From: a virus | Taxonomy: Duplodnaviria; Caudoviricetes | Reading direction: 5' to 3' (one strand) | DNA length: 64,000 nucleotides | Virus record (IMG/VR): IMGVR_UViG_3300010262_000138 | Coordinates: 32,001 to 96,000 of that record | Part shown: piece after piece, positions 51,682-57,220 of the stretch | Numbering within the stretch: position 1 is the stretch's first letter | Layout of the letters: every line of letters starts with the position of its first letter | Position numbers and translations under genes: made by a program | Notes under the pieces: model-generated | Database searches by the model: none | Seen by the model: the letters and a program-made list of their open reading frames with translations, nothing else | Told to the model about the DNA's origin: nothing

Positions 51682-51822
51682 TGAACGCTCCATAATTGAC
51701 AGTTGGAACGAAAAAGAGCAGAAACGTGAAAAAGCAAAAGAAGATAGGTATATTAAACAGCTTGAAAAATATAAAGCCGAAATAGAAAGACCGCTGAAAA
51801 CGGCTATTCCGGGGGAGGAAGT

Positions 51823-52116
51823 ATGATTTGTGGAAGATGTGGTAAAGAGTTTAGACAAGACCCACTCGCTCGTGCATCTTGGTATTGCGACGATTGTATG
51901 AGCGAATTGTTTAAGCCAAAGAAAAAGATTATCACCAACGCCGACCGTATCCGGGCCATGAGCGACGAAGATCTAGCACGATTTCTCATTTGGAATGTTC
52001 CGAGTTGCGTTAATTTTTGCGACGATGCCCGTTGCGGATGCAAGTGGAATTGCAAGCATTGTGACGGCCTAACTGTTATTGCCGACTGGCTCCGTCAGAC
52101 AGCGAAGGAGGTTTGA
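51823..52116 (+). CDS. Hypothetical protein, paralog of 39504-39806
   Basis: Near-identical N-terminus MICGRCGKEFRQ.PLARASWYCDDC. Confidence 0.65.
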   Translation: MICGRCGKEFRQDPLARASWYCDDCMSELFKPKKKIITNADRIRAMSDEDLARFLIWNVPSCVNFCDDARCGCKWNCKHCDGLTVIADWLRQTAKEV

Positions 52117-52352
52117 CCATGATACCTTATAAGTGCCCTATCTGTGGAGGAAAAGGAATTGTCCCCGGAGGATTTTATATATCAGTTGGTTATACATGGT
52201 CAAGCAACTGTACTACAGAGAAATGCAGACAATGCAACGGACAAGGCATTATTTGGTCGAATACTGCCGATATGGATAAGATCTCAGGATTAAATGTTGG
52301 ATCAAATACATTGATCGCAGGAACCTATAATAATTCACATGAGGAGGTTTGA
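52113..52352 (+). CDS. DnaJ-type Zn-finger small protein
   Basis: CPICGGKG...CRQCNGQG. Confidence 0.6.
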   Translation: MTMIPYKCPICGGKGIVPGGFYISVGYTWSSNCTTEKCRQCNGQGIIWSNTADMDKISGLNVGSNTLIAGTYNNSHEEV

Positions 52353-52948
52353 CCATGTACGAAGGTCTGATAGACAGCCTGCGCACTCATGTAGAGTGGG
52401 CACGTGCGAACGAATGGGAATCTCCGATTACGCTCGGGGATGATCTGGAAGAGGCAATCAATGCTATTGAAGCACTTACAAAAGACTTTGAATTTGTAGA
52501 CGATATCAATCTGGGCAATGGTGTAACAATAGAAGAGCTTCAGGCAGAGGTTGATGCTCTACGCAAAATGCAGCCCGTCAATCTGGAGGAAGATGAAGCC
52601 AGATCGTTTGTGTTAGCCGCAGAACTATCAGAGGCAAGAACTAGGTTGGCAAAATCGGAGACCGAAAGAGATAGATTTGAGCAAATGTATCTGCAGTCTG
52701 AGGCCGATGCAATCAATCTAACCGGAGAGTTGACCGAGGTTAGCGCCGAAAACGCCCGGCTCCGGCGGGAGAGAGATGCGGCGGTGCGCGATTTGAAAGA
52801 ATGCGATATGAGAGAGCCGGGCGGCAGGTTTTGCAAGGATAAAGAAGAGTGTTATCAATATGTTCGTGAGCATGGTGGATTTTACCCTGAATGCGACGGA
52901 TGCCCATTGTGGCAATGGCGCGGACCGGCGGGAGATAGCAAATACTGA
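52349..52948 (+). CDS. Coiled-coil hypothetical protein
   Basis: ERDAAV.DL...WQWRG motif. Confidence 0.6.
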   Translation: MTMYEGLIDSLRTHVEWARANEWESPITLGDDLEEAINAIEALTKDFEFVDDINLGNGVTIEELQAEVDALRKMQPVNLEEDEARSFVLAAELSEARTRLAKSETERDRFEQMYLQSEADAINLTGELTEVSAENARLRRERDAAVRDLKECDMREPGGRFCKDKEECYQYVREHGGFYPECDGCPLWQWRGPAGDSKY

Positions 52949-52954
52949 GCACGT

Positions 52955-53302
52955 CTAATATTTAACCATATCAGACTGAATCTTTCTGCTATGAGTAATA
53001 ACTTCTACTTCTTTATCGCTTTTACGAAACCATACGTGATATCCTTCTTGATGCTCTGCGTAATATTGAGATCCGCAGTAAAGATAGTTCTTTTGTCTTA
53101 GAAATTCTTTTAGAAGTAACCACTGATTATAATCTTCAACCGTTCGGGTTTTTGAGAAAACCAATACATCACCTTCACAAATTGGTGCCGGCTTTTCATG
53201 TCCGGTTAAATGTCCAGTAAGGTCAAAGCGCTCAGAGTTTGCTGCGCTGCAGTGTAATGAGAAACGCCGAAAGAGGAAACAGCCAATCAACGGATAAAGC
53301 AT
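52955..53302 (-). CDS. Hypothetical protein (start uncertain)
   Basis: ORF convergent with early block. Confidence 0.4.
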   Translation of the reverse strand: MLYPLIGCFLFRRFSLHCSAANSERFDLTGHLTGHEKPAPICEGDVLVFSKTRTVEDYNQWLLLKEFLRQKNYLYCGSQYYAEHQEGYHVWFRKSDKEVEVITHSRKIQSDMVKY

Positions 53303-53350
53303 GGCGTATTGAAAATTAGGAGCGATGCCTTCACACCGCCCCTATTGCGA

Positions 53351-53443
53351 CTAGCTCCCCAAAGAGAGCCAGATGGCCTTAATGACCTCGCAAATTATCC
53401 CGGCGATTACGCCGCAAATAATCTCCTTGGCTTCAGGACGCAT
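53351..53443 (-). CDS. Type I toxin-like 30-aa hydrophobic peptide MRPEAKEIICGVIAGIICEVIKAIWLSLGS
   Basis: TTGCAA-17-TGnTATTCT promoter, AGGAGGT SD, anti-SD CTCCTAA in both 5' and 3' UTR. Confidence 0.7.
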   Translation of the reverse strand: MRPEAKEIICGVIAGIICEVIKAIWLSLGS

Positions 53444-53617
53444 CCGATACCTCCTAACGAGACCAAAAGTTTAGCCTCGAGCGGCCTTTCGCTCTCGTTT
53501 CTTCGATTAGGAGATAACAATCGCAGTTACAGAATAGCATATCCAGAAAAGGTTTGCAATCTGTAGACGGGAAATAGTTCAATACGCCACGCTTTGTCTT
53601 AAATATTAGGAGGTATT

Positions 53618-53917
53618 TTGATGGATGTAAAAATGCGTTTAGTATTAAATTATCTTGAAAGTCTTCAATATGATATTTGCGAGTCTATGATTGGACCGCA
53701 AAATTACAATAGAATTAACGGCGTGTCTCCTAAAGAGTTTGTGCAAAATCTTCTCTTCTTAAAGGAAGATGGATATATAGGGATAAATTTTTTGGGAAAC
53801 CCGTCAGAAAATACACATTGCATAATCACAATGACCAAAAAGATGGCAGACGACAAATACTGTAGAGAACGTAATATTTTATACCTATTAAATAAATGGT
53901 TTAAGAAAGCCAAGTAA
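53618..53917 (+). CDS. Winged-helix-like hypothetical protein (paralog of 53888-54205)
   Basis: AGGAGGT SD; VLNYL.SL.YD...INGVSP.EF...GYI...FLG.PS. Confidence 0.6.
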   Translation: MMDVKMRLVLNYLESLQYDICESMIGPQNYNRINGVSPKEFVQNLLFLKEDGYIGINFLGNPSENTHCIITMTKKMADDKYCRERNILYLLNKWFKKAK

Positions 53918-54205
53918 CGATTTTGCCTTACTCCACAAGTCGTCTTGAAAATATGATTTAGCCCTAGGCTTTATTCTTACATAGCACGCATGTTCCGGAG
54001 ATGGAACTCCTAAGAATTGTACGGAAATATACCCCTCACTTTGAATATCAAGTAACTGCCTAATAAACTCGTCAGGAGAAATCCCGTCTATCGCGGAATA
54101 GCTTTTAGTGTTAAGCAACGTGTCATTCTGACTATCGTAATTAAGAGATAATAAGTATTTAAGCACACGTTTAAACTCTTTCTTATTCATTTTAACCACC
54201 ATCAT
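53888..54205 (-). CDS. Winged-helix-like hypothetical protein (paralog of 53618-53917)
   Basis: VLKYL.SL.YD...IDGISP.EF...GYI...FLG.PS. Confidence 0.6.
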   Translation of the reverse strand: MMVVKMNKKEFKRVLKYLLSLNYDSQNDTLLNTKSYSAIDGISPDEFIRQLLDIQSEGYISVQFLGVPSPEHACYVRIKPRAKSYFQDDLWSKAKSLLGFLKPFI

Positions 54206-54234
54206 CTATCATGTCATAAAGGAGAGAAAATTCA

Positions 54235-54732
54235 ATGACTTACACATCAGCAAGTGCCCACAAACAAATCAAGCTATGGACAGAAGAGCGCGACGCTTTA
54301 ATTCAAAAGGAGCGGGAAATCTGCTCGTATACCTATCAGGCGGGAGAGGAACCGGTAATTGAAAAATACGATTTTGTTAATACGCAATGCCGAATCGCGG
54401 AATATAACAACAAGATTGCCGATCTAAGACACGCTGTTAATCTTTTCAATACAACAACGGTATTGCCCGGACTTGGCTTCACAATTGACGAAGCGCTTGT
54501 AAGAATGTCAATGCTTAACGATCAGAAAAACCGTCTCTCTCGTATGAAAGATATCAGAGAGAAAACGAGACAAACCAACTATAAAGGAATATCAGAATTT
54601 ACAGAACGCAATTTTAATATAGACGATTGTGAAGCTCTGTATCAGAAGGTTTGTAATGAGCTAATTCAAATTCAGCTTTCCATTGATAAGACAAATCTTA
54701 CAGAACAGTTTGATGTTCCTGACGAAGATTAA
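54235..54732 (+). CDS. DIP1984-like long helical-hairpin protein
   Basis: I..LRHAVN.FN.T...TIDEAL...N.....L..IQ..ID..N pattern; AAGGAG SD. Confidence 0.55.
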   Translation: MTYTSASAHKQIKLWTEERDALIQKEREICSYTYQAGEEPVIEKYDFVNTQCRIAEYNNKIADLRHAVNLFNTTTVLPGLGFTIDEALVRMSMLNDQKNRLSRMKDIREKTRQTNYKGISEFTERNFNIDDCEALYQKVCNELIQIQLSIDKTNLTEQFDVPDED

Positions 54733-55227
54733 CCATTGCCATTTGTGAAAATTGAAAAGGGTACGTCGCCGCACCCTTTCAGTCATCAATACCGCAGATG
54801 ACGGAGCGTTTCCCTTACGAACATATAGATCGTAAGTACATCAGCAAGTGCGCCGATCATGCGGAGCACATATAGCATCAGTTCGCCCACTGCATCACTG
54901 CCTTTCATATATATGCTGAAAGTACGGGACCCTCACTCTGAGCAAGTGAGTGTAGTCATATGAGCGGGTTGATGACGCCAAAATTATAATACAGTTTACA
55001 CAAAACGGCAAGCCCTAATATCCGTCCATCCAGTCCACAACTAAACAAAAGAAAATTCTATCAAGTATCTGTAGACGTATCGTTGATGTTATAAGATTAT
55101 TTTGTTATTTATTGTCTGTATGTGCATAAGATGAAGAAGTCTATAGAAGAAATTCTATTTTTAATATCATAATTGGATTGGTAAAAACTTAGGAAAGAGG
55201 TCTTTCCCCGGCAAAAGTAGATGGTTA
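54731..55227 (+). ncRNA. Putative ~500-nt structured RNA
   Basis: ORF-free; 5' TAACCAT-TGCC pairs with 3' GGCA..ATGGTTA; run of 7-8 adjacent hairpins. Confidence 0.5.
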
Positions 55228-55291
55228 TATGCCGGATATCCTGTGCCGCAGCCGAATGATAGGCAGTCAGTTAGTTTGTAAAAGCAGAGTT

Positions 55292-55318
55292 AAAAAGAGG
55301 GCGTGATATTCACGCCCT
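55292..55318 (-). terminator. Intrinsic terminator of the cassette inside the split tRNA
   Basis: AGGGCGTGA/TCACGCCCT stem followed by CTTTTT on minus strand only. Confidence 0.7.
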
Positions 55319-55344
55319 GACGGTTAACGACCCCTCATAAGCAC

Positions 55345-55407
55345 TCAGTTTAACAAGGCGCTATAGGTAGCGATCGTTATATTAACGCAGATATCCATGA
55401 GATCCAT
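55345..55407 (-). CDS. 20-aa hydrophobic peptide MDLMDICVNITIATYSALLN
   Basis: AGGAGGT SD; TTGTAT-16-TGnTATAAT promoter at 55525-55498; terminator downstream. Confidence 0.55.
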   Translation of the reverse strand: MDLMDICVNITIATYSALLN

Positions 55408-55665
55408 GCCAACACCTCCTGTATGTAAACTAAAATGAGAGGTTCTTCCCTTAATAACCTTAACACCTCAATTTAGTAACAAAAGGACCGCTACTTTATT
55501 ATAGCAAATTATTCAATTTATACAATAACAAAACTCTTACAAATTCAACTGATGTATGCTGGTTCGAGTCCAGCCGGCACAACCAACGGAGAATAGGTTG
55601 TCAGTTAGTCATCTCCGGACAAAAACGATTAAGACTGTCTGGCAGGCCGGAAAGACGGCCGATAT

Positions 55666-55740
55666 ACGCCCTTAGCTCAACGGAAGAGCACACTCCTTAT
55701 AAGGGTGAGGTTGTGGGGTCAGAACCCACAAGGCGTACCA
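55666..55740 (+). tRNA. tRNA-Ile(UAU)
   Basis: Cloverleaf; anticodon arm CACTC-CTTATAA-GGGTG; encoded CCA; atypical T loop GTCAGAA and one acceptor mismatch. Confidence 0.8.
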
Positions 55741-55794
55741 GATCATTTTCGTAAATCTACGAAAACTGATAATTAAAAAGAAAGAAGGTAAGTT

Positions 55795-56061
55795 ATGACA
55801 GAACCCCAGAAGTATCAATGTCCCTATTGTAAAACCTGGTATGAAACACCCAGAGAGATGGCCCTTTGTACGATTCGCTGCGATGAAGCGAGAGAGGAGA
55901 TGGAAAAGAGAAAACGAGAATTAGAATTCAAAGAGAAAAAGGCTCAGAGATCTAGTGAACTTAAGCAAAAATATGTAGAATTACAGAATTTGTGTAAGTC
56001 ATATGCACATGATTACGGGACAGATCTTCCTATCACGTTCCCGTTGAAAATTTTTTTCTAA
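55795..56061 (+). CDS. Small Zn-finger/coiled-coil protein
   Basis: YQCPYC...C...C. Confidence 0.6.
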   Translation: MTEPQKYQCPYCKTWYETPREMALCTIRCDEAREEMEKRKRELEFKEKKAQRSSELKQKYVELQNLCKSYAHDYGTDLPITFPLKIFF

Positions 56062-56079
56062 TTAAGATGAGGTAACTAA

Positions 56080-56387
56080 ATGAATATTATTTTTGTTAAT
56101 CATTACACAGAAAAAGACTATTGTTTCGAGGTCCCTGAACTGCTTTTGCCGTACTTAAAAAAGGCATGACAGTCCTTGTTGAAACCAAAAGAGGAGTCAC
56201 TACAGGTATTACGACAACGGATATTATCAGCGGAGATGGCGCCAGAGACATTGCCGTAAAAGCAGGAGCATATTTCCCTCTTGCTAAAGTAATTTCATTT
56301 CTTGATGGCATTCTTATGCAGGTTGCAAAAAATCAGATTGTCAATGTAATAAATAAGGAATTTGAAATCCCCTATATTCCATTTTAA
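56080..56387 (+). CDS. Hypothetical protein, apparently split by a -1 frameshift
   Basis: GAGGT SD and ATG 56080; A-AAA-AAG at 56157-56163 joins to ORF 56166-56387. Confidence 0.5.
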
Positions 56388-56398
56388 AAAGGAGATTT

Positions 56399-57220
56399 AT
56401 GGACAAAATCAAAGTATTTGAAACAGAACTAAAGTGGATTCAGAACCCTGAAATCCGCAATTTTGCTGAGAAAGCTGTTTCACTTTTGCCAGACTATTTC
56501 TTTGAGGTTGCCGCGTCGAGCACAGGAAAATATCATCCTACATACGCTATTGGCCCAGGCGGATTGGTGCGGCATACAAAAGCTGCAGCTTCAATTGCTC
56601 ACGAACTGCTTTCACTTGAAATGTATGATAAATATACTTCAGATGAAAGAGATCTGATGCTAATCGCCCTGATTTTGCACGATGGGTGGAAGCATGGTAA
56701 ATCTGAAAAGGCAGGCGCCTATACGGTGGCAGAACATCCTACCGTATGTTCAGAATGGATTCAGGAAACAGAAGATCTGTCTTCTTTATTGCCCGAGGAG
56801 CAGATTGAATTTCTCTGCGGGTGTATTGCGTCTCATATGGGGCAGTGGAATACCGATTACCGTACAAAGAAGGAAATCCTCCCTAAACCTAAGACCGCCG
56901 CGCAGAAGTTTGTGCATCAGGCCGATTATCTTGCAAGCCGTAAATATCTTATCTACGACTTTGGAGACAGTTATTATCGCCCCGGAAATAGTCCGGATGA
57001 ATCTAAAAAGGAAGACCAGCTTAATACAGTTAAATCAAAAATCGTCGCTCTTTGCAAAGAAAAGATCTCATCCGGGGTCAATAGTTCTGAGCTCTATGCG
57101 CTTATTGCAGAAAAAACCGGAGGTTCTAAAAACCCTAATTCCATTACCGATGTAGGCATTGCAAACGAAGTGCTGTCTGCAATTTCAAATCTAAATAAGG
57201 GGGATTCAAGTGGAAAATAA
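56399..57220 (+). CDS. HD-domain phosphohydrolase
   Basis: ASSTGKYHP..GGLVRHT...LHDG...HP...SHMG.W...ADYLASR. Confidence 0.85.
   Translation: MDKIKVFETELKWIQNPEIRNFAEKAVSLLPDYFFEVAASSTGKYHPTYAIGPGGLVRHTKAAASIAHELLSLEMYDKYTSDERDLMLIALILHDGWKHGKSEKAGAYTVAEHPTVCSEWIQETEDLSSLLPEEQIEFLCGCIASHMGQWNTDYRTKKEILPKPKTAAQKFVHQADYLASRKYLIYDFGDSYYRPGNSPDESKKEDQLNTVKSKIVALCKEKISSGVNSSELYALIAEKTGGSKNPNSITDVGIANEVLSAISNLNKGDSSGK

What the first reader, a model, noticed from the sequence alone, without database searches (positions are those of the whole stretch)
54235..55227. DIP1984-like gene followed by a ~500-nt end-paired multi-hairpin RNA containing a copy of its own coding start
Seen: after the stop codon is an ORF-free region whose ends can pair (54731 TAACCATTGCC with 55210-55227 GGCA..ATGGTTA). 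It holds back-to-back hairpins with short loops (TGAAAAGGGT/ACCCTTTCA, GTCATC/GATGAC, CTTACGA/TCGTAAG, GTGC.CCG/CGG.GCAC, CACTC/GAGTG, GTCAT/ATGAC), then A/C-rich and U-rich tracts. The 14-mer ACATCAGCAAGTGC from about codons 4-8 of the gene (54244) recurs at 54838, and AGCAAGTG recurs in a loop near 54941. Inference: a protein-ncRNA module, with the protein binding a motif shared by its own mRNA and the RNA (autoregulation, a type III TA-like pair or an RNP scaffold). The family assignment is by eye.
Basis: partly seen in the sequence, partly recalled or inferred. Interest (0 to 1): 0.75.

Follow-up and report, generated by a model that had tools for sequence, protein, structure and literature searches.

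The report
DIP1984-like gene with partner RNA

Summary
The gene at 54235-54732 encodes a protein with the DIP1984 fold (PDB 3KDQ).

In about 30 homologous loci (30-52% protein identity; Faecalibacterium, Erysipelotrichaceae, Slackia, Cuneatibacter, large phages) the stop codon is followed by:
- a closing helix;
- GUU units spaced 6-7 nt apart;
- an AAAAACUU box;
- a hairpin whose loop pairs with that box (pseudoknot) and carries a T-loop-like GGUUAUA.

Covariation is strong. The window holds all of these parts (54732-55235), and a model built without the window finds its 3' domain. No Rfam family matches, and no paper links this gene family to an RNA.

The 14-mer copy is broken in all seven close relatives examined and is within chance.

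The protein-RNA module is therefore supported. Autoregulation through a shared motif and a type III toxin-antitoxin reading are not. Protein-RNA binding is inferred, not shown.

This scan has found the same gene-plus-RNA pair before in other genomes.

The parts
54235..54732 (+). Gene for a 165-aa DIP1984-fold protein (4 long helices plus a small sheet)
   Evidence: ORF. AlphaFold model with pLDDT 89.9. Foldseek best match is 3KDQ, probability 1.0, TM 0.62-0.67. Pfam DUF6847 E=0.002, below the cut-off. 12/12 homologs hit DUF6847 weakly and 9/12 hit NF038048 weakly.
54732..54748 (+). P0, 5' strand of the closing helix. It starts at the last base of the stop codon and includes the UUGCC counterpart of the family's UUCC box.
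   Evidence: RNAduplex gives -17.0 kcal/mol with 55167-55182. An equivalent helix of different sequence is found in all 21 loci tested: native mean -17.4 against non-native -11.7, sd 4.0.
54753..54781 (+). P1 hairpin (UGAAAAGGGU...ACCCUUUCA). No U-tract follows on the + strand, so it is not a + strand terminator. On the - strand AUUUUCAC follows it.
   Evidence: Sequence and MFE fold. A hairpin at the same position was seen by eye in homolog L013.
54782..54976 (+). Hairpin-rich expansion closed by a 13-bp imperfect inverted repeat (54782-54795 / 54964-54976).
   Evidence: MFE fold, z = -2.4 on + and -3.5 on -. Unique in the 112-kb record. No match in viral contigs, phages or plasmids.
54797..54983 (.). 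187-nt presence/absence polymorphism: present in the window and 8 close relatives, absent in L002 (IMGVR_UViG_3300010266_000352).
   Evidence: Alignments A1.
54983..55011 (-). Promoter-like site on the minus strand (TTGCCG-17-TATAAT, 10/12) that would read into the 187-nt block.
   Evidence: Consensus scan. The number of such sites in the region equals the shuffle expectation, so this is only a lead.
54984..55081 (+). A/C-rich spacer. It has no counterpart in the shorter RNAs of homologs and is the most variable part among close relatives.
   Evidence: pi 0.030 for 54984-55242; z = -1.1.
55082..55114 (+). Array of RUUR units (GUUG, GUUA, AUUA, GUUA, AUUG; spacings 6, 8, 8, 7). It contains the family's most conserved block, UUAUUUUGUUAUUU (55097-55110).
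   Evidence: The block is found 81-94 nt after the stop in 18 homolog loci, against 365 nt here. GUU spacing in 21 homologs peaks at 6-7 nt: 49 cases against about 5 expected.
55167..55182 (+). P0, 3' strand of the closing helix
55183..55190 (+). B2 box AAAAACUU. ACUU (55187-55190) pairs with AAGU in the H3 loop (55215-55218), forming a pseudoknot.
   Evidence: Paired in 20 of 20 sequences, with A-U to G-C in 3 and U-A to C-G in 3.
55192..55207 (+). H2, an optional hairpin of variable sequence (GGAAAG/CUUUCC)
   Evidence: In L007, L009 and L010 seven substitutions plus a 3-nt insertion turn it into a different hairpin with a GAAA loop, while B2 and H3 stay identical. H2 is present or absent among homologs.
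55208..55235 (+). H3: stem CCGGC/GCCGG with an 18-nt conserved loop AAAAGUAGAUGGUUAUAU. GGUUAUA (55223-55229) is T-loop-like.
   Evidence: Model R1, built without the window, finds 55179-55238 at 24.4 bits, E=0.02, the only hit in the 64-kb window. All 8 stem pairs covary, and the inner five pairs are paired in 99 of 100 cells.
55243..55585 (+). Context: a split tRNA-like RNA that starts 7 nt after H3. It has a perfect 7-bp acceptor stem, D and T arms, an encoded ACCA end and a 271-nt insert in the anticodon loop.
   Evidence: ARAGORN with the intron option. MFE fold is a cloverleaf with a long arm, z = -5.5.
55666..55740 (+). Context: tRNA-Ile (UAU)

Best explanation
The gene 54235-54732 encodes a DIP1984-fold protein. 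The roughly 500 nt that follow it on the same strand (54732-55235) are this phage's copy of an uncatalogued structured RNA that accompanies this gene family.

Anatomy shared by the family:
- a helix (P0) that closes the RNA, made of the bases just after the stop codon and the bases just before an A-rich box;
- a largely single-stranded interior carrying GUU(A) units every 6-7 nt;
- the box AAAAACUU;
- an optional hairpin H2;
- a hairpin H3 whose loop (GGAAGU..CGGUUAUA) pairs with the box to form a pseudoknot and presents a T-loop-like turn.

In this phage lineage the interior has grown from about 100-130 nt to about 420 nt. The extra material includes a 187-nt hairpin-rich block closed by its own inverted repeat. 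A close relative lacks the block, so it is dispensable.

Likely working (inferred, not shown): the RNA is transcribed with the gene, since no + strand terminator lies between them. It is cut free at its 3' side by tRNA processing, because a tRNA-like RNA starts 7 nt after H3 (8 nt in homolog L013). The protein, probably as an oligomer, then binds the evenly spaced GUU units while the closing helix and the pseudoknot hold the array in shape, giving a protein-RNA particle. What that particle does is unknown.
For: Shown:
1. Co-occurrence. The RNA is found after every intact homolog examined, including viral contigs, Faecalibacterium, Erysipelotrichaceae, Slackia, Cuneatibacter, Clostridia MAGs and GenBank MT838960.1 and MT839421.1. 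The downstream neighbour varies: tRNAs, an amidohydrolase behind its own terminator and promoter, or other genes.
2. Covariation in the 3' domain. 89.5% of cells are paired against 63.5% in shuffles (0/500 reach it). All 8 H3 pairs change on both sides. The pseudoknot is paired in 20/20 sequences with two covarying pairs. Sliding the partner drops pairing to 38-50%.
3. Closing helix. It is present with a different sequence in all 21 loci: native mean -17.4 against non-native -11.7 kcal/mol.
4. Repeat units. GUU spacings of 6-7 nt occur 49 times against about 5 expected, with a harmonic at 12-14 nt.
5. Strand. 18 G-U cells in H3, and G-U pairs in H2 of L028 seen by eye, fit only the gene's strand.
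6. The window is a member. Model R1, built without it, hits 55179-55238 and nothing else in the window. P0 and the conserved block are also present.
7. Selection in this lineage. H2 is replaced by a different hairpin in three close relatives while B2 and H3 stay identical.
8. Specificity. In two whole genomes the model's only hit at E<=0.01 is the copy next to the gene.
9. Protein fold matches 3KDQ.
Against: - No transcript data exist. No RNA run holding the stretch is on record (listed under Tried and rejected).
- Protein-RNA binding is pure inference from linkage and from the repeat architecture.
- The window's GUU array is degenerate: 3 canonical GUU and about 5 RUUR units.
- The interior is about 290 nt longer than in any homolog, so this copy could be impaired.
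- Among close relatives the non-coding stretch is more variable (pi 0.014-0.030) than the gene (0.002). This may reflect mosaic recombination rather than a lack of constraint.
- Three of the five whole genomes searched gave no hit at E<=0.01 although their copies are known. The short model is therefore insensitive, and 'single copy' rests on two genomes.
Confidence: 0.7

Rival explanations
1. The whole ~500-nt multi-hairpin RNA, hairpin block included, is the functional unit. The protein recognises a motif (ACAUCAGCAAGUGC / AGCAAGUG) shared by its own mRNA start and the RNA, giving autoregulation or a type III toxin-antitoxin-like pair.
For: The 14-mer and the 8-mer are really there. The block folds somewhat better than shuffles.
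Against: - The block is absent in L002, whose protein is 91% identical.
- The 14-mer match is broken in all 7 close relatives, at two different positions.
- 0.25 such repeats are expected per window.
- Homologs have no such block.
- There is no tandem array.
- The RNA lies downstream of the gene, and the only significant fold match of the protein is 3KDQ.
Confidence: 0.04
2. The hairpin block is a separate minus-strand unit, a small RNA or mini-gene, that has landed inside the interior of the partner RNA. It would be transcribed from the promoter-like site at 55011-54983 and would end at the P1 hairpin, which on the minus strand is followed by AUUUUCAC. This does not exclude the best explanation; it concerns only 54745-54983.
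For: - A minus-strand promoter-like site with 10/12 matches; its hexamers are unchanged among relatives while neighbouring bases vary.
- The minus strand folds better, z = -3.5 against -2.4.
- The block is bounded by an inverted repeat and behaves as an indel.
- The same phage has a clear minus-strand mini-gene, with promoter, AGGAGG, a 20-codon ORF and a terminator, inside the neighbouring split tRNA, and another at 53293-53598.
Against: - Promoter-like sites in the region are no more frequent than in shuffles.
- The 40-codon minus-strand ORF has no Shine-Dalgarno sequence, and all 4 SNPs inside it fall on codon position 2.
- There is no sequence similarity to the two other cassettes.
- One SNP (54868 A>G) keeps a pair only on the + strand.
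Confidence: 0.2
3. The conserved RNA is a cis-acting element that works without the protein. It could be a 3' UTR that stabilises the mRNA, or a processing or stability platform for whatever follows it (tRNAs in phages). It would be linked to the gene only because it is part of its transcript.
For: The RNA starts at the stop codon with no terminator in between. In phage-like loci tRNAs follow within 7-80 nt. In Erysipelotrichaceae a ribosome-binding site follows H3 within about 10 nt.
Against: The downstream neighbour is not conserved, while the upstream gene always is. In Faecalibacterium a terminator and a fresh promoter separate the RNA from the next gene. Evenly spaced short units are typical of RNAs bound by multimeric proteins, not of stabilisers (general knowledge of TRAP, HutP and CsrA targets).
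Confidence: 0.2
4. A DNA-level element (replication origin, recombination or packaging site) rather than an RNA.
For: T-rich repeated units and hairpins also occur in origins and iteron regions.
Against: The helices tolerate G-U pairs on one strand only (18 cells). A loop-to-upstream-box pseudoknot covaries. A long-range closing helix covaries. The position is fixed relative to a stop codon in chromosomes as well as phages.
Confidence: 0.03

Closest known systems
DIP1984 family / Pfam DUF6847 (PF20935), NCBIfam NF038048, crystal structure 3KDQ (Corynebacterium diphtheriae); often mis-annotated 'septicolysin'
   Same: The predicted fold superposes on 3KDQ (TM 0.62-0.67, probability 1.0). All 12 homologs give weak DUF6847 hits and 9 give weak NF038048 hits. 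Size is about 160 aa.
   Different: Sequence scores are below the curated cut-offs (18.6 against 27 bits; no NCBIfam hit for the window's protein). This is therefore a divergent gut-Firmicute and phage branch. No function is known for any member, and no paper in the library links the family to an RNA.
RNAs bound by ring or multimer proteins through evenly spaced short units: trp leader with TRAP, hut terminator with HutP, CsrB/RsmZ with CsrA
   Same: A row of short units at a regular spacing (GUU every 6-7 nt here), flanked by structure, and genetically tied to one small protein.
   Different: A different protein fold and different units. The RNA lies after the protein's own gene rather than in the leader of target genes. 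It is closed by a long-range helix and a pseudoknot. Binding has not been shown.
Type III toxin-antitoxin systems (ToxIN, CptIN, TenpIN)
   Same: A small phage-associated protein gene with a dedicated adjacent non-coding RNA.
   Different: Those RNAs are tandem direct repeats upstream of an endoribonuclease toxin. Here there is no tandem array, the RNA is downstream, and the protein has the 3KDQ fold.
Large phage-associated RNAs ROOL and GOLLD, and the orphan RAGATH-27 motif (Rfam RF03100)
   Same: Structured RNAs of unknown function that sit near tRNA genes in phages (general knowledge).
   Different: No match to any of the 4227 Rfam 15 families, even at E up to 10 on the window and up to 1 on 13 homolog loci.
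Ro60 (Rsr) with bacterial Y RNAs (YrlA)
   Same: A protein gene with a neighbouring structured RNA that contains a tRNA-like or T-loop element.
   Different: Unrelated protein. The only YrlA hit was a sub-threshold match elsewhere in locus L039, next to a tRNA (24 against 69 bits).

Membership tests
DIP1984 / DUF6847 protein family | Pfam PF20935 score at or above the gathering cut-off (27 bits) | tested here: not met
   18.6 bits, E=0.002. All 12 homologs hit weakly, best E 1.3e-5.
DIP1984 / DUF6847 protein family | NCBIfam NF038048 match | tested here: not met
   No hit for the window's protein. 9 of 12 homologs hit weakly, best E 2.5e-4.
DIP1984 / DUF6847 protein family | Fold of the solved member 3KDQ | tested here: met
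   Model pLDDT 89.9. Foldseek 3KDQ chains C and A: E 6e-5 and 4e-4, probability 1.0, TM 0.62-0.67. The next hits have E > 0.2.
Uncatalogued RNA that trails DIP1984-like genes (defined here) | Lies directly after the stop codon of the gene, on the same strand | tested here: met
   Window 54732-55235. Same layout in about 30 loci.
Uncatalogued RNA that trails DIP1984-like genes (defined here) | Closing helix between the bases after the stop and the bases before the A-rich box | tested here: met
   54732-54748 with 55167-55182, -17.0 kcal/mol. Family-wide native against non-native test.
Uncatalogued RNA that trails DIP1984-like genes (defined here) | Array of GUU units at 6-7 nt spacing, with the block UURUUUUGUURUU | tested here: inconclusive
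   The block is present at 55097-55110. There are only 3 canonical GUU and about 5 RUUR units, with spacings 6, 8, 8, 7. No period-7 signal appears in the window's autocorrelation.
Uncatalogued RNA that trails DIP1984-like genes (defined here) | AAAAACUU box, H3 hairpin with loop GGAAGU..CGGUUAUA, and box-loop pseudoknot | tested here: met
   Model R1 (window not in the seed): 24.4 bits, E 0.02, the only hit in the window. Pseudoknot 55187-55190 with 55215-55218.
Type III toxin-antitoxin | Tandem direct-repeat RNA upstream of the toxin gene | tested here: not met
   No tandem repeat in 54600-55498; the single TRF row, at 55499-55526, is unrelated. The RNA is downstream of the gene.
Type III toxin-antitoxin | Toxin with the ToxN/AbiQ endoribonuclease fold | tested here: not met
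   The only significant PDB fold match is 3KDQ. No PADLOC scan was run.
ROOL / GOLLD / RAGATH-27 and all other Rfam 15 families | Covariance-model match | tested here: not met
   Nothing but tRNA at gathering score. Nothing relevant at E up to 10 on 54500-55900, nor at E up to 1 on 13 homolog loci.

The most novel reading that the evidence does not exclude
The DIP1984-fold protein and its trailing RNA form a previously undescribed ribonucleoprotein particle that is widespread in gut bacteria and their phages. The protein multimer would read the 7-nt-spaced GUU units. The pseudoknot and T-loop end would act as a tRNA-like handle that couples the particle to tRNA processing or to the translation machinery. 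In this phage the RNA's interior serves as a landing pad that tolerates whole extra domains (the 187-nt block), so the particle could carry variable RNA cargo.
Probability: 0.3. Interest if true: 0.85.

Novelty: categorically new. Interest (0 to 1): 0.7.

Why it matters
DIP1984/DUF6847 proteins are common, have had a crystal structure since 2009 and still have no known function. A dedicated, covarying, pseudoknotted RNA that starts at their stop codon gives the family a testable partner and points to RNA binding as its activity.

The pair occurs in cultivable gut bacteria (Faecalibacterium langellae CNCM I-4541, Slackia equolifaciens DSM 24851, Cuneatibacter caecimuris DSM 29486) as well as in large phages, so ordinary genetics and biochemistry can address it.

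This window adds three points:
- The RNA can absorb about 290 nt of extra sequence in its interior.
- One 187-nt domain is a presence/absence polymorphism between near-identical phages.
- The RNA abuts a tRNA(-like) gene within 7-8 nt in two unrelated phage-like loci, which suggests how its 3' end is made.

It also shows that the eye-catching features (stacked hairpins, a repeated 14-mer) were not the functional ones.

Tried and rejected
- **RNA expression.** The look-up of sequencing runs listed no RNA holder. The one run offered is probably DNA and holds a 0.06 share of the words. Laying it gave a single 201-nt contig inside the gene, 54526-54719. This is no evidence either way.
- **Homo-oligomer prediction.** Three copies scored 0.60 but one control scored 0.61, so there is no verdict.
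- **PDB sequence search** with the family profile found nothing below E 0.4.
- **PHROGs and NCBIfam** on the window's protein gave no hit.
- **DNA searches.** blastn of the region against phages and plasmids matched only a tRNA piece, or nothing. An exact 23-mer from the hairpin block had no hit in viral contigs. The block is unique in its own genome.
- **Coding reading of the block.** The 40-aa minus-strand ORF has no Shine-Dalgarno sequence and all 4 of its SNPs are at codon position 2. Five SNPs share one phase, but no single ORF covers them. Rejected as coding.
Rejected because that stretch belongs to the conserved local hairpin H3.
- **UUCC box pairing with GGAA of the H3 loop.** Both are near-invariant, and the window's variants (UUGCC; loop AAAAGU) do not compensate. 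Left open.
- **Split tRNA as a group I intron.** No G occurs in the last 45 nt of the insert, and there is no Rfam intron hit. As a tmRNA: no G3-U70, and ARAGORN -m finds nothing.
- **RNAalifold on plain MAFFT alignments** recovers only H3, because the closing helix is not column-aligned. P0 was therefore tested with duplex energies instead.
- **tblastn against GenBank phages** found only two unannotated fecal scaffolds. The claim in earlier scan notes that phage T5 carries the pair was not tested.
Full report
**Setting**

The window is bases 32001-96000 of a 112-kb IMG/VR phage record. Structural genes lie on the minus strand in its left half and early genes on the plus strand in its right half. 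The finding sits in the early region. Just downstream are a NinG-like ORF, an HD-domain protein and a Sak single-strand annealing protein.

The ORF 54235-54732 is followed by 933 nt without a credible ORF, up to tRNA-Ile(UAU) at 55666-55740.

**Checking the observation**

Its weight is smaller than it looks.

- The hairpin half (54740-54985) folds with z = -2.4 on the plus strand and -3.5 on the minus strand.
- The A/U-rich half (54984-55242) is not more stable than shuffles, z = -1.1.
- A direct repeat of 14 nt or more within 1 kb is expected 0.25 times per simulated window of this composition.

Close relatives settle the matter.

- In the contig IMGVR_UViG_3300010266_000352 (L002, protein 91% identical) the stretch 54797-54983 is simply absent. 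The following 800 nt are about 99-100% identical.
- Seven near-identical metagenomic contigs were examined for the 14-mer. All have ACAGCAGCAAGTGC in the gene, and three have ACATCAACAAGTGC in the second copy.
- The shared 14-mer is therefore not maintained.

**What the homologs show**

Proteins 30-52% identical occur in two settings:
- in Faecalibacterium, Erysipelotrichaceae, Slackia, Cuneatibacter and other Clostridia, on ordinary chromosomal contigs;
- in large viral contigs.

Their right-hand neighbours differ: tRNAs, an amidohydrolase behind its own terminator and promoter, or assorted other genes. Yet the DNA after the stop codon is conserved in a recognisable pattern:

- a UUCC box a few bases after the stop;
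- a T/G-rich block UURUUUUGUURUU at 81-94 nt;
- a box AAAAACUU at 140-230 nt;
- a hairpin with a conserved loop GGAAGU..CGGUUAUA.

*3' domain.* A covariance model built from 11 of these sequences, without the window, then found the same element in further homologs and in the window itself. The window hit is 55179-55238, 24.4 bits, E 0.02, and is the only hit in 64 kb. A second-round model recovered it in all intact homolog loci and in two GenBank fecal phage scaffolds that were not used for any model (MT838960.1 and MT839421.1). The only homolog without it, L025, has a gene truncated by a deletion.

*Evidence that this is a structured RNA on the gene's strand.* On 20 distinct sequences:
- All eight H3 stem pairs change on both sides.
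- 89.5% of cells pair against 63.5% in shuffles (0 of 500 shuffles reach it).
- Pairing falls to 38-50% when the partner is slid by 1-3 columns.
- The four pairs between ACUU of the box and AAGU of the loop are kept in 20 of 20 sequences. They switch A-U to G-C in three sequences (L046, L049, L015) and U-A to C-G in three (L037, L039, L015). This is a pseudoknot.
- Eighteen G-U cells would be A-C mismatches on the other strand.

*Closing helix.* The bases after the stop codon pair with the bases just before the A-rich box in all 21 loci tested. The helices are 8-12 bp long and differ in sequence, for example CAUCUGACAG/CUGUCAGAUG, GAUACUGUCUU/AAGACAGUAUC and UCGGUGAUUC/GAAUCAUCGA. Native pairs average -17.4 kcal/mol against -11.7 (sd 4.0) for 5' and 3' strands taken from different loci.

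*Interior.* GUU occurs about twice as often as in shuffles. Successive GUUs are 6 or 7 nt apart in 49 cases where about 5 are expected, with a harmonic at 12-14 nt.

*Catalogues and specificity.* No Rfam 15 family matches the window or 13 homolog loci. In two whole genomes the model's only hit at E<=0.01 is the copy beside the gene; three other genomes with known, lower-scoring copies gave no hit at that threshold.

**Anatomy in the window**

| Part | Coordinates | Note |
|---|---|---|
| P0 | 54732-54748 with 55167-55182 | closing helix |
| P1 hairpin | 54753-54781 | no U-tract on the plus strand, so not a terminator for the gene |
| Expansion | 54782-54976 | closed by a 13-bp inverted repeat; its core 54797-54983 is the indel |
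| A/C-rich spacer | 54984-55081 | no counterpart in homologs |
| RUUR units | 55082-55114 | includes the conserved block 55097-55110 |
| B2 | 55183-55190 | AAAAACUU |
| H2 | 55192-55207 | optional hairpin |
| H3 | 55208-55235 | pseudoknot 55187-55190 with 55215-55218; T-loop-like GGUUAUA at 55223-55229 |

The distance from the stop codon to the A-rich B2 box is 451 nt here and 264 nt in L002, against 140-230 nt in homologs. This lineage therefore carries an expanded interior.

Three close relatives (L007, L009, L010) replace H2 with a different hairpin. The change takes seven substitutions and a 3-nt insertion and gives a GAAA loop. B2 and H3 do not change. The 3' domain is thus under selection in this phage too.

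**The protein**

The AlphaFold model is confident (pLDDT 89.9). It matches only 3KDQ, the DIP1984 structure (TM 0.62-0.67, probability 1.0). Sequence models stay below their cut-offs. The protein is therefore a divergent relative of DIP1984/DUF6847.

The papers found mention the family only as the annotation 'septicolysin' or 'DIP1984 family'. None gives a function or links it to an RNA.

**How it most likely works**

*Shown:* tight linkage of gene and RNA, the RNA's strand, and its helices, pseudoknot and repeat spacing.

*Inferred:*
- The RNA is made as a 3' extension of the gene's transcript.
- In phage loci its 3' end is set by tRNA processing. The tRNA(-like) starts 7 nt after H3 here and 8 nt after H3 in L013.
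- The protein, as a multimer, binds the spaced GUU units, in the way TRAP, HutP or CsrA bind their spaced triplets. The closing helix and the pseudoknot fix the geometry.

The biological role is unknown. I put 0.85 on 'a genuine conserved RNA tied to this gene' and about 0.5 on direct protein binding.

**The hairpin block**

Two readings remain.
- It may be a dispensable expansion domain of the plus-strand RNA. Its own inverted repeat would let it protrude without disturbing the fold.
- It may be an inserted minus-strand unit. A promoter-like site lies at 55011-54983. On the minus strand the P1 hairpin is followed by AUUUUCAC. The minus strand folds better. Two clear minus-strand mini-genes exist nearby.

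It does not look protein-coding.

**Relation to earlier scan notes**

After I had worked this out, a look-up showed that earlier follow-ups of this scan reported the same gene-plus-RNA pair, with 7-nt units and pseudoknots, in other genomes.

- Their lead on the 7-nt spacing prompted, which confirm it for this branch of the family.
- Their statements about phage T5 and other phyla were not tested here.
- Their mention of RAGATH-27 as the nearest catalogued motif is consistent with my finding that no Rfam model matches.

**Verdict**

The module holds; the shared-motif autoregulation and the toxin-antitoxin reading do not.
- The real feature is an uncatalogued RNA family with a partner protein of unknown function, present here in an unusually expanded form.

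Noticed in passing
window 55243-55585 (+), with a minus-strand mini-gene inside at about 55290-55545: A split tRNA-like RNA. It has a perfect 7-bp acceptor stem (TGTGCCG/CGGCACA), D arm, T arm GCTGG-TTCGAGT-CCAGC, an encoded ACCA end and a 271-nt insert in the anticodon loop whose ends extend the anticodon stem. The MFE fold is a cloverleaf with a long arm, z = -5.5. Inside the insert, on the minus strand, there is an apparent promoter (TTGTAT, 16-nt spacer, TATAAT), then AGGAGG, a 20-codon ORF (MDLMDICVNITIATYSALLN) and a strong terminator. It is not a group I intron (no G in the last 45 nt of the insert, no Rfam hit) and not a tmRNA (no G3-U70).
   Followed up: partly
locus L008 (logan SRR16894878_9604), equivalent to window position ~55526: In one near-identical relative an IS element (rve-family transposase plus an HTH_Tnp_1 ORF) is inserted inside the 271-nt insert of the split tRNA-like gene.
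   Followed up: no
window 55254-55275 and 55589-55610: The motif ATAGG..GTCAGTTAGT from the 5' half of the split tRNA recurs just after its 3' end, inside a hairpin CGGAGA...TCTCCG. It is unexplained.
   Followed up: no
It has TTGCAA-17-TATTCT, TTAGGAGG and a 30-codon ORF (MRPEAKEIICGVIAGIICEVIKAIWLSLGS). It has no sequence similarity to the cassette in the split tRNA or to the 187-nt block.
   Followed up: partly
locus L013 (ENA ERZ28640598 scaffold_493) 281-1918: A 52%-identical homolog of the gene with its RNA sits in the middle of a tRNA cluster, three tRNAs upstream and two downstream. tRNA-Asp starts 8 nt after H3 and is preceded by ATATC, as in the window.
   Followed up: partly
locus L025 (ENA ERZ28751287 contig_1453) 2001-2483: A Faecalibacterium-type locus in which a deletion has removed the C-terminus of the DIP1984-like gene together with its RNA. 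The reading frame now runs on through a terminator and promoter into the start of the amidohydrolase gene.
   Followed up: partly
window 51735-57220 against relatives L005-L012: Nucleotide diversity among near-identical phages jumps from 0.001-0.005 left of 54796 to 0.014-0.06 right of it. A recombination boundary therefore lies at or near the RNA.
   Followed up: no
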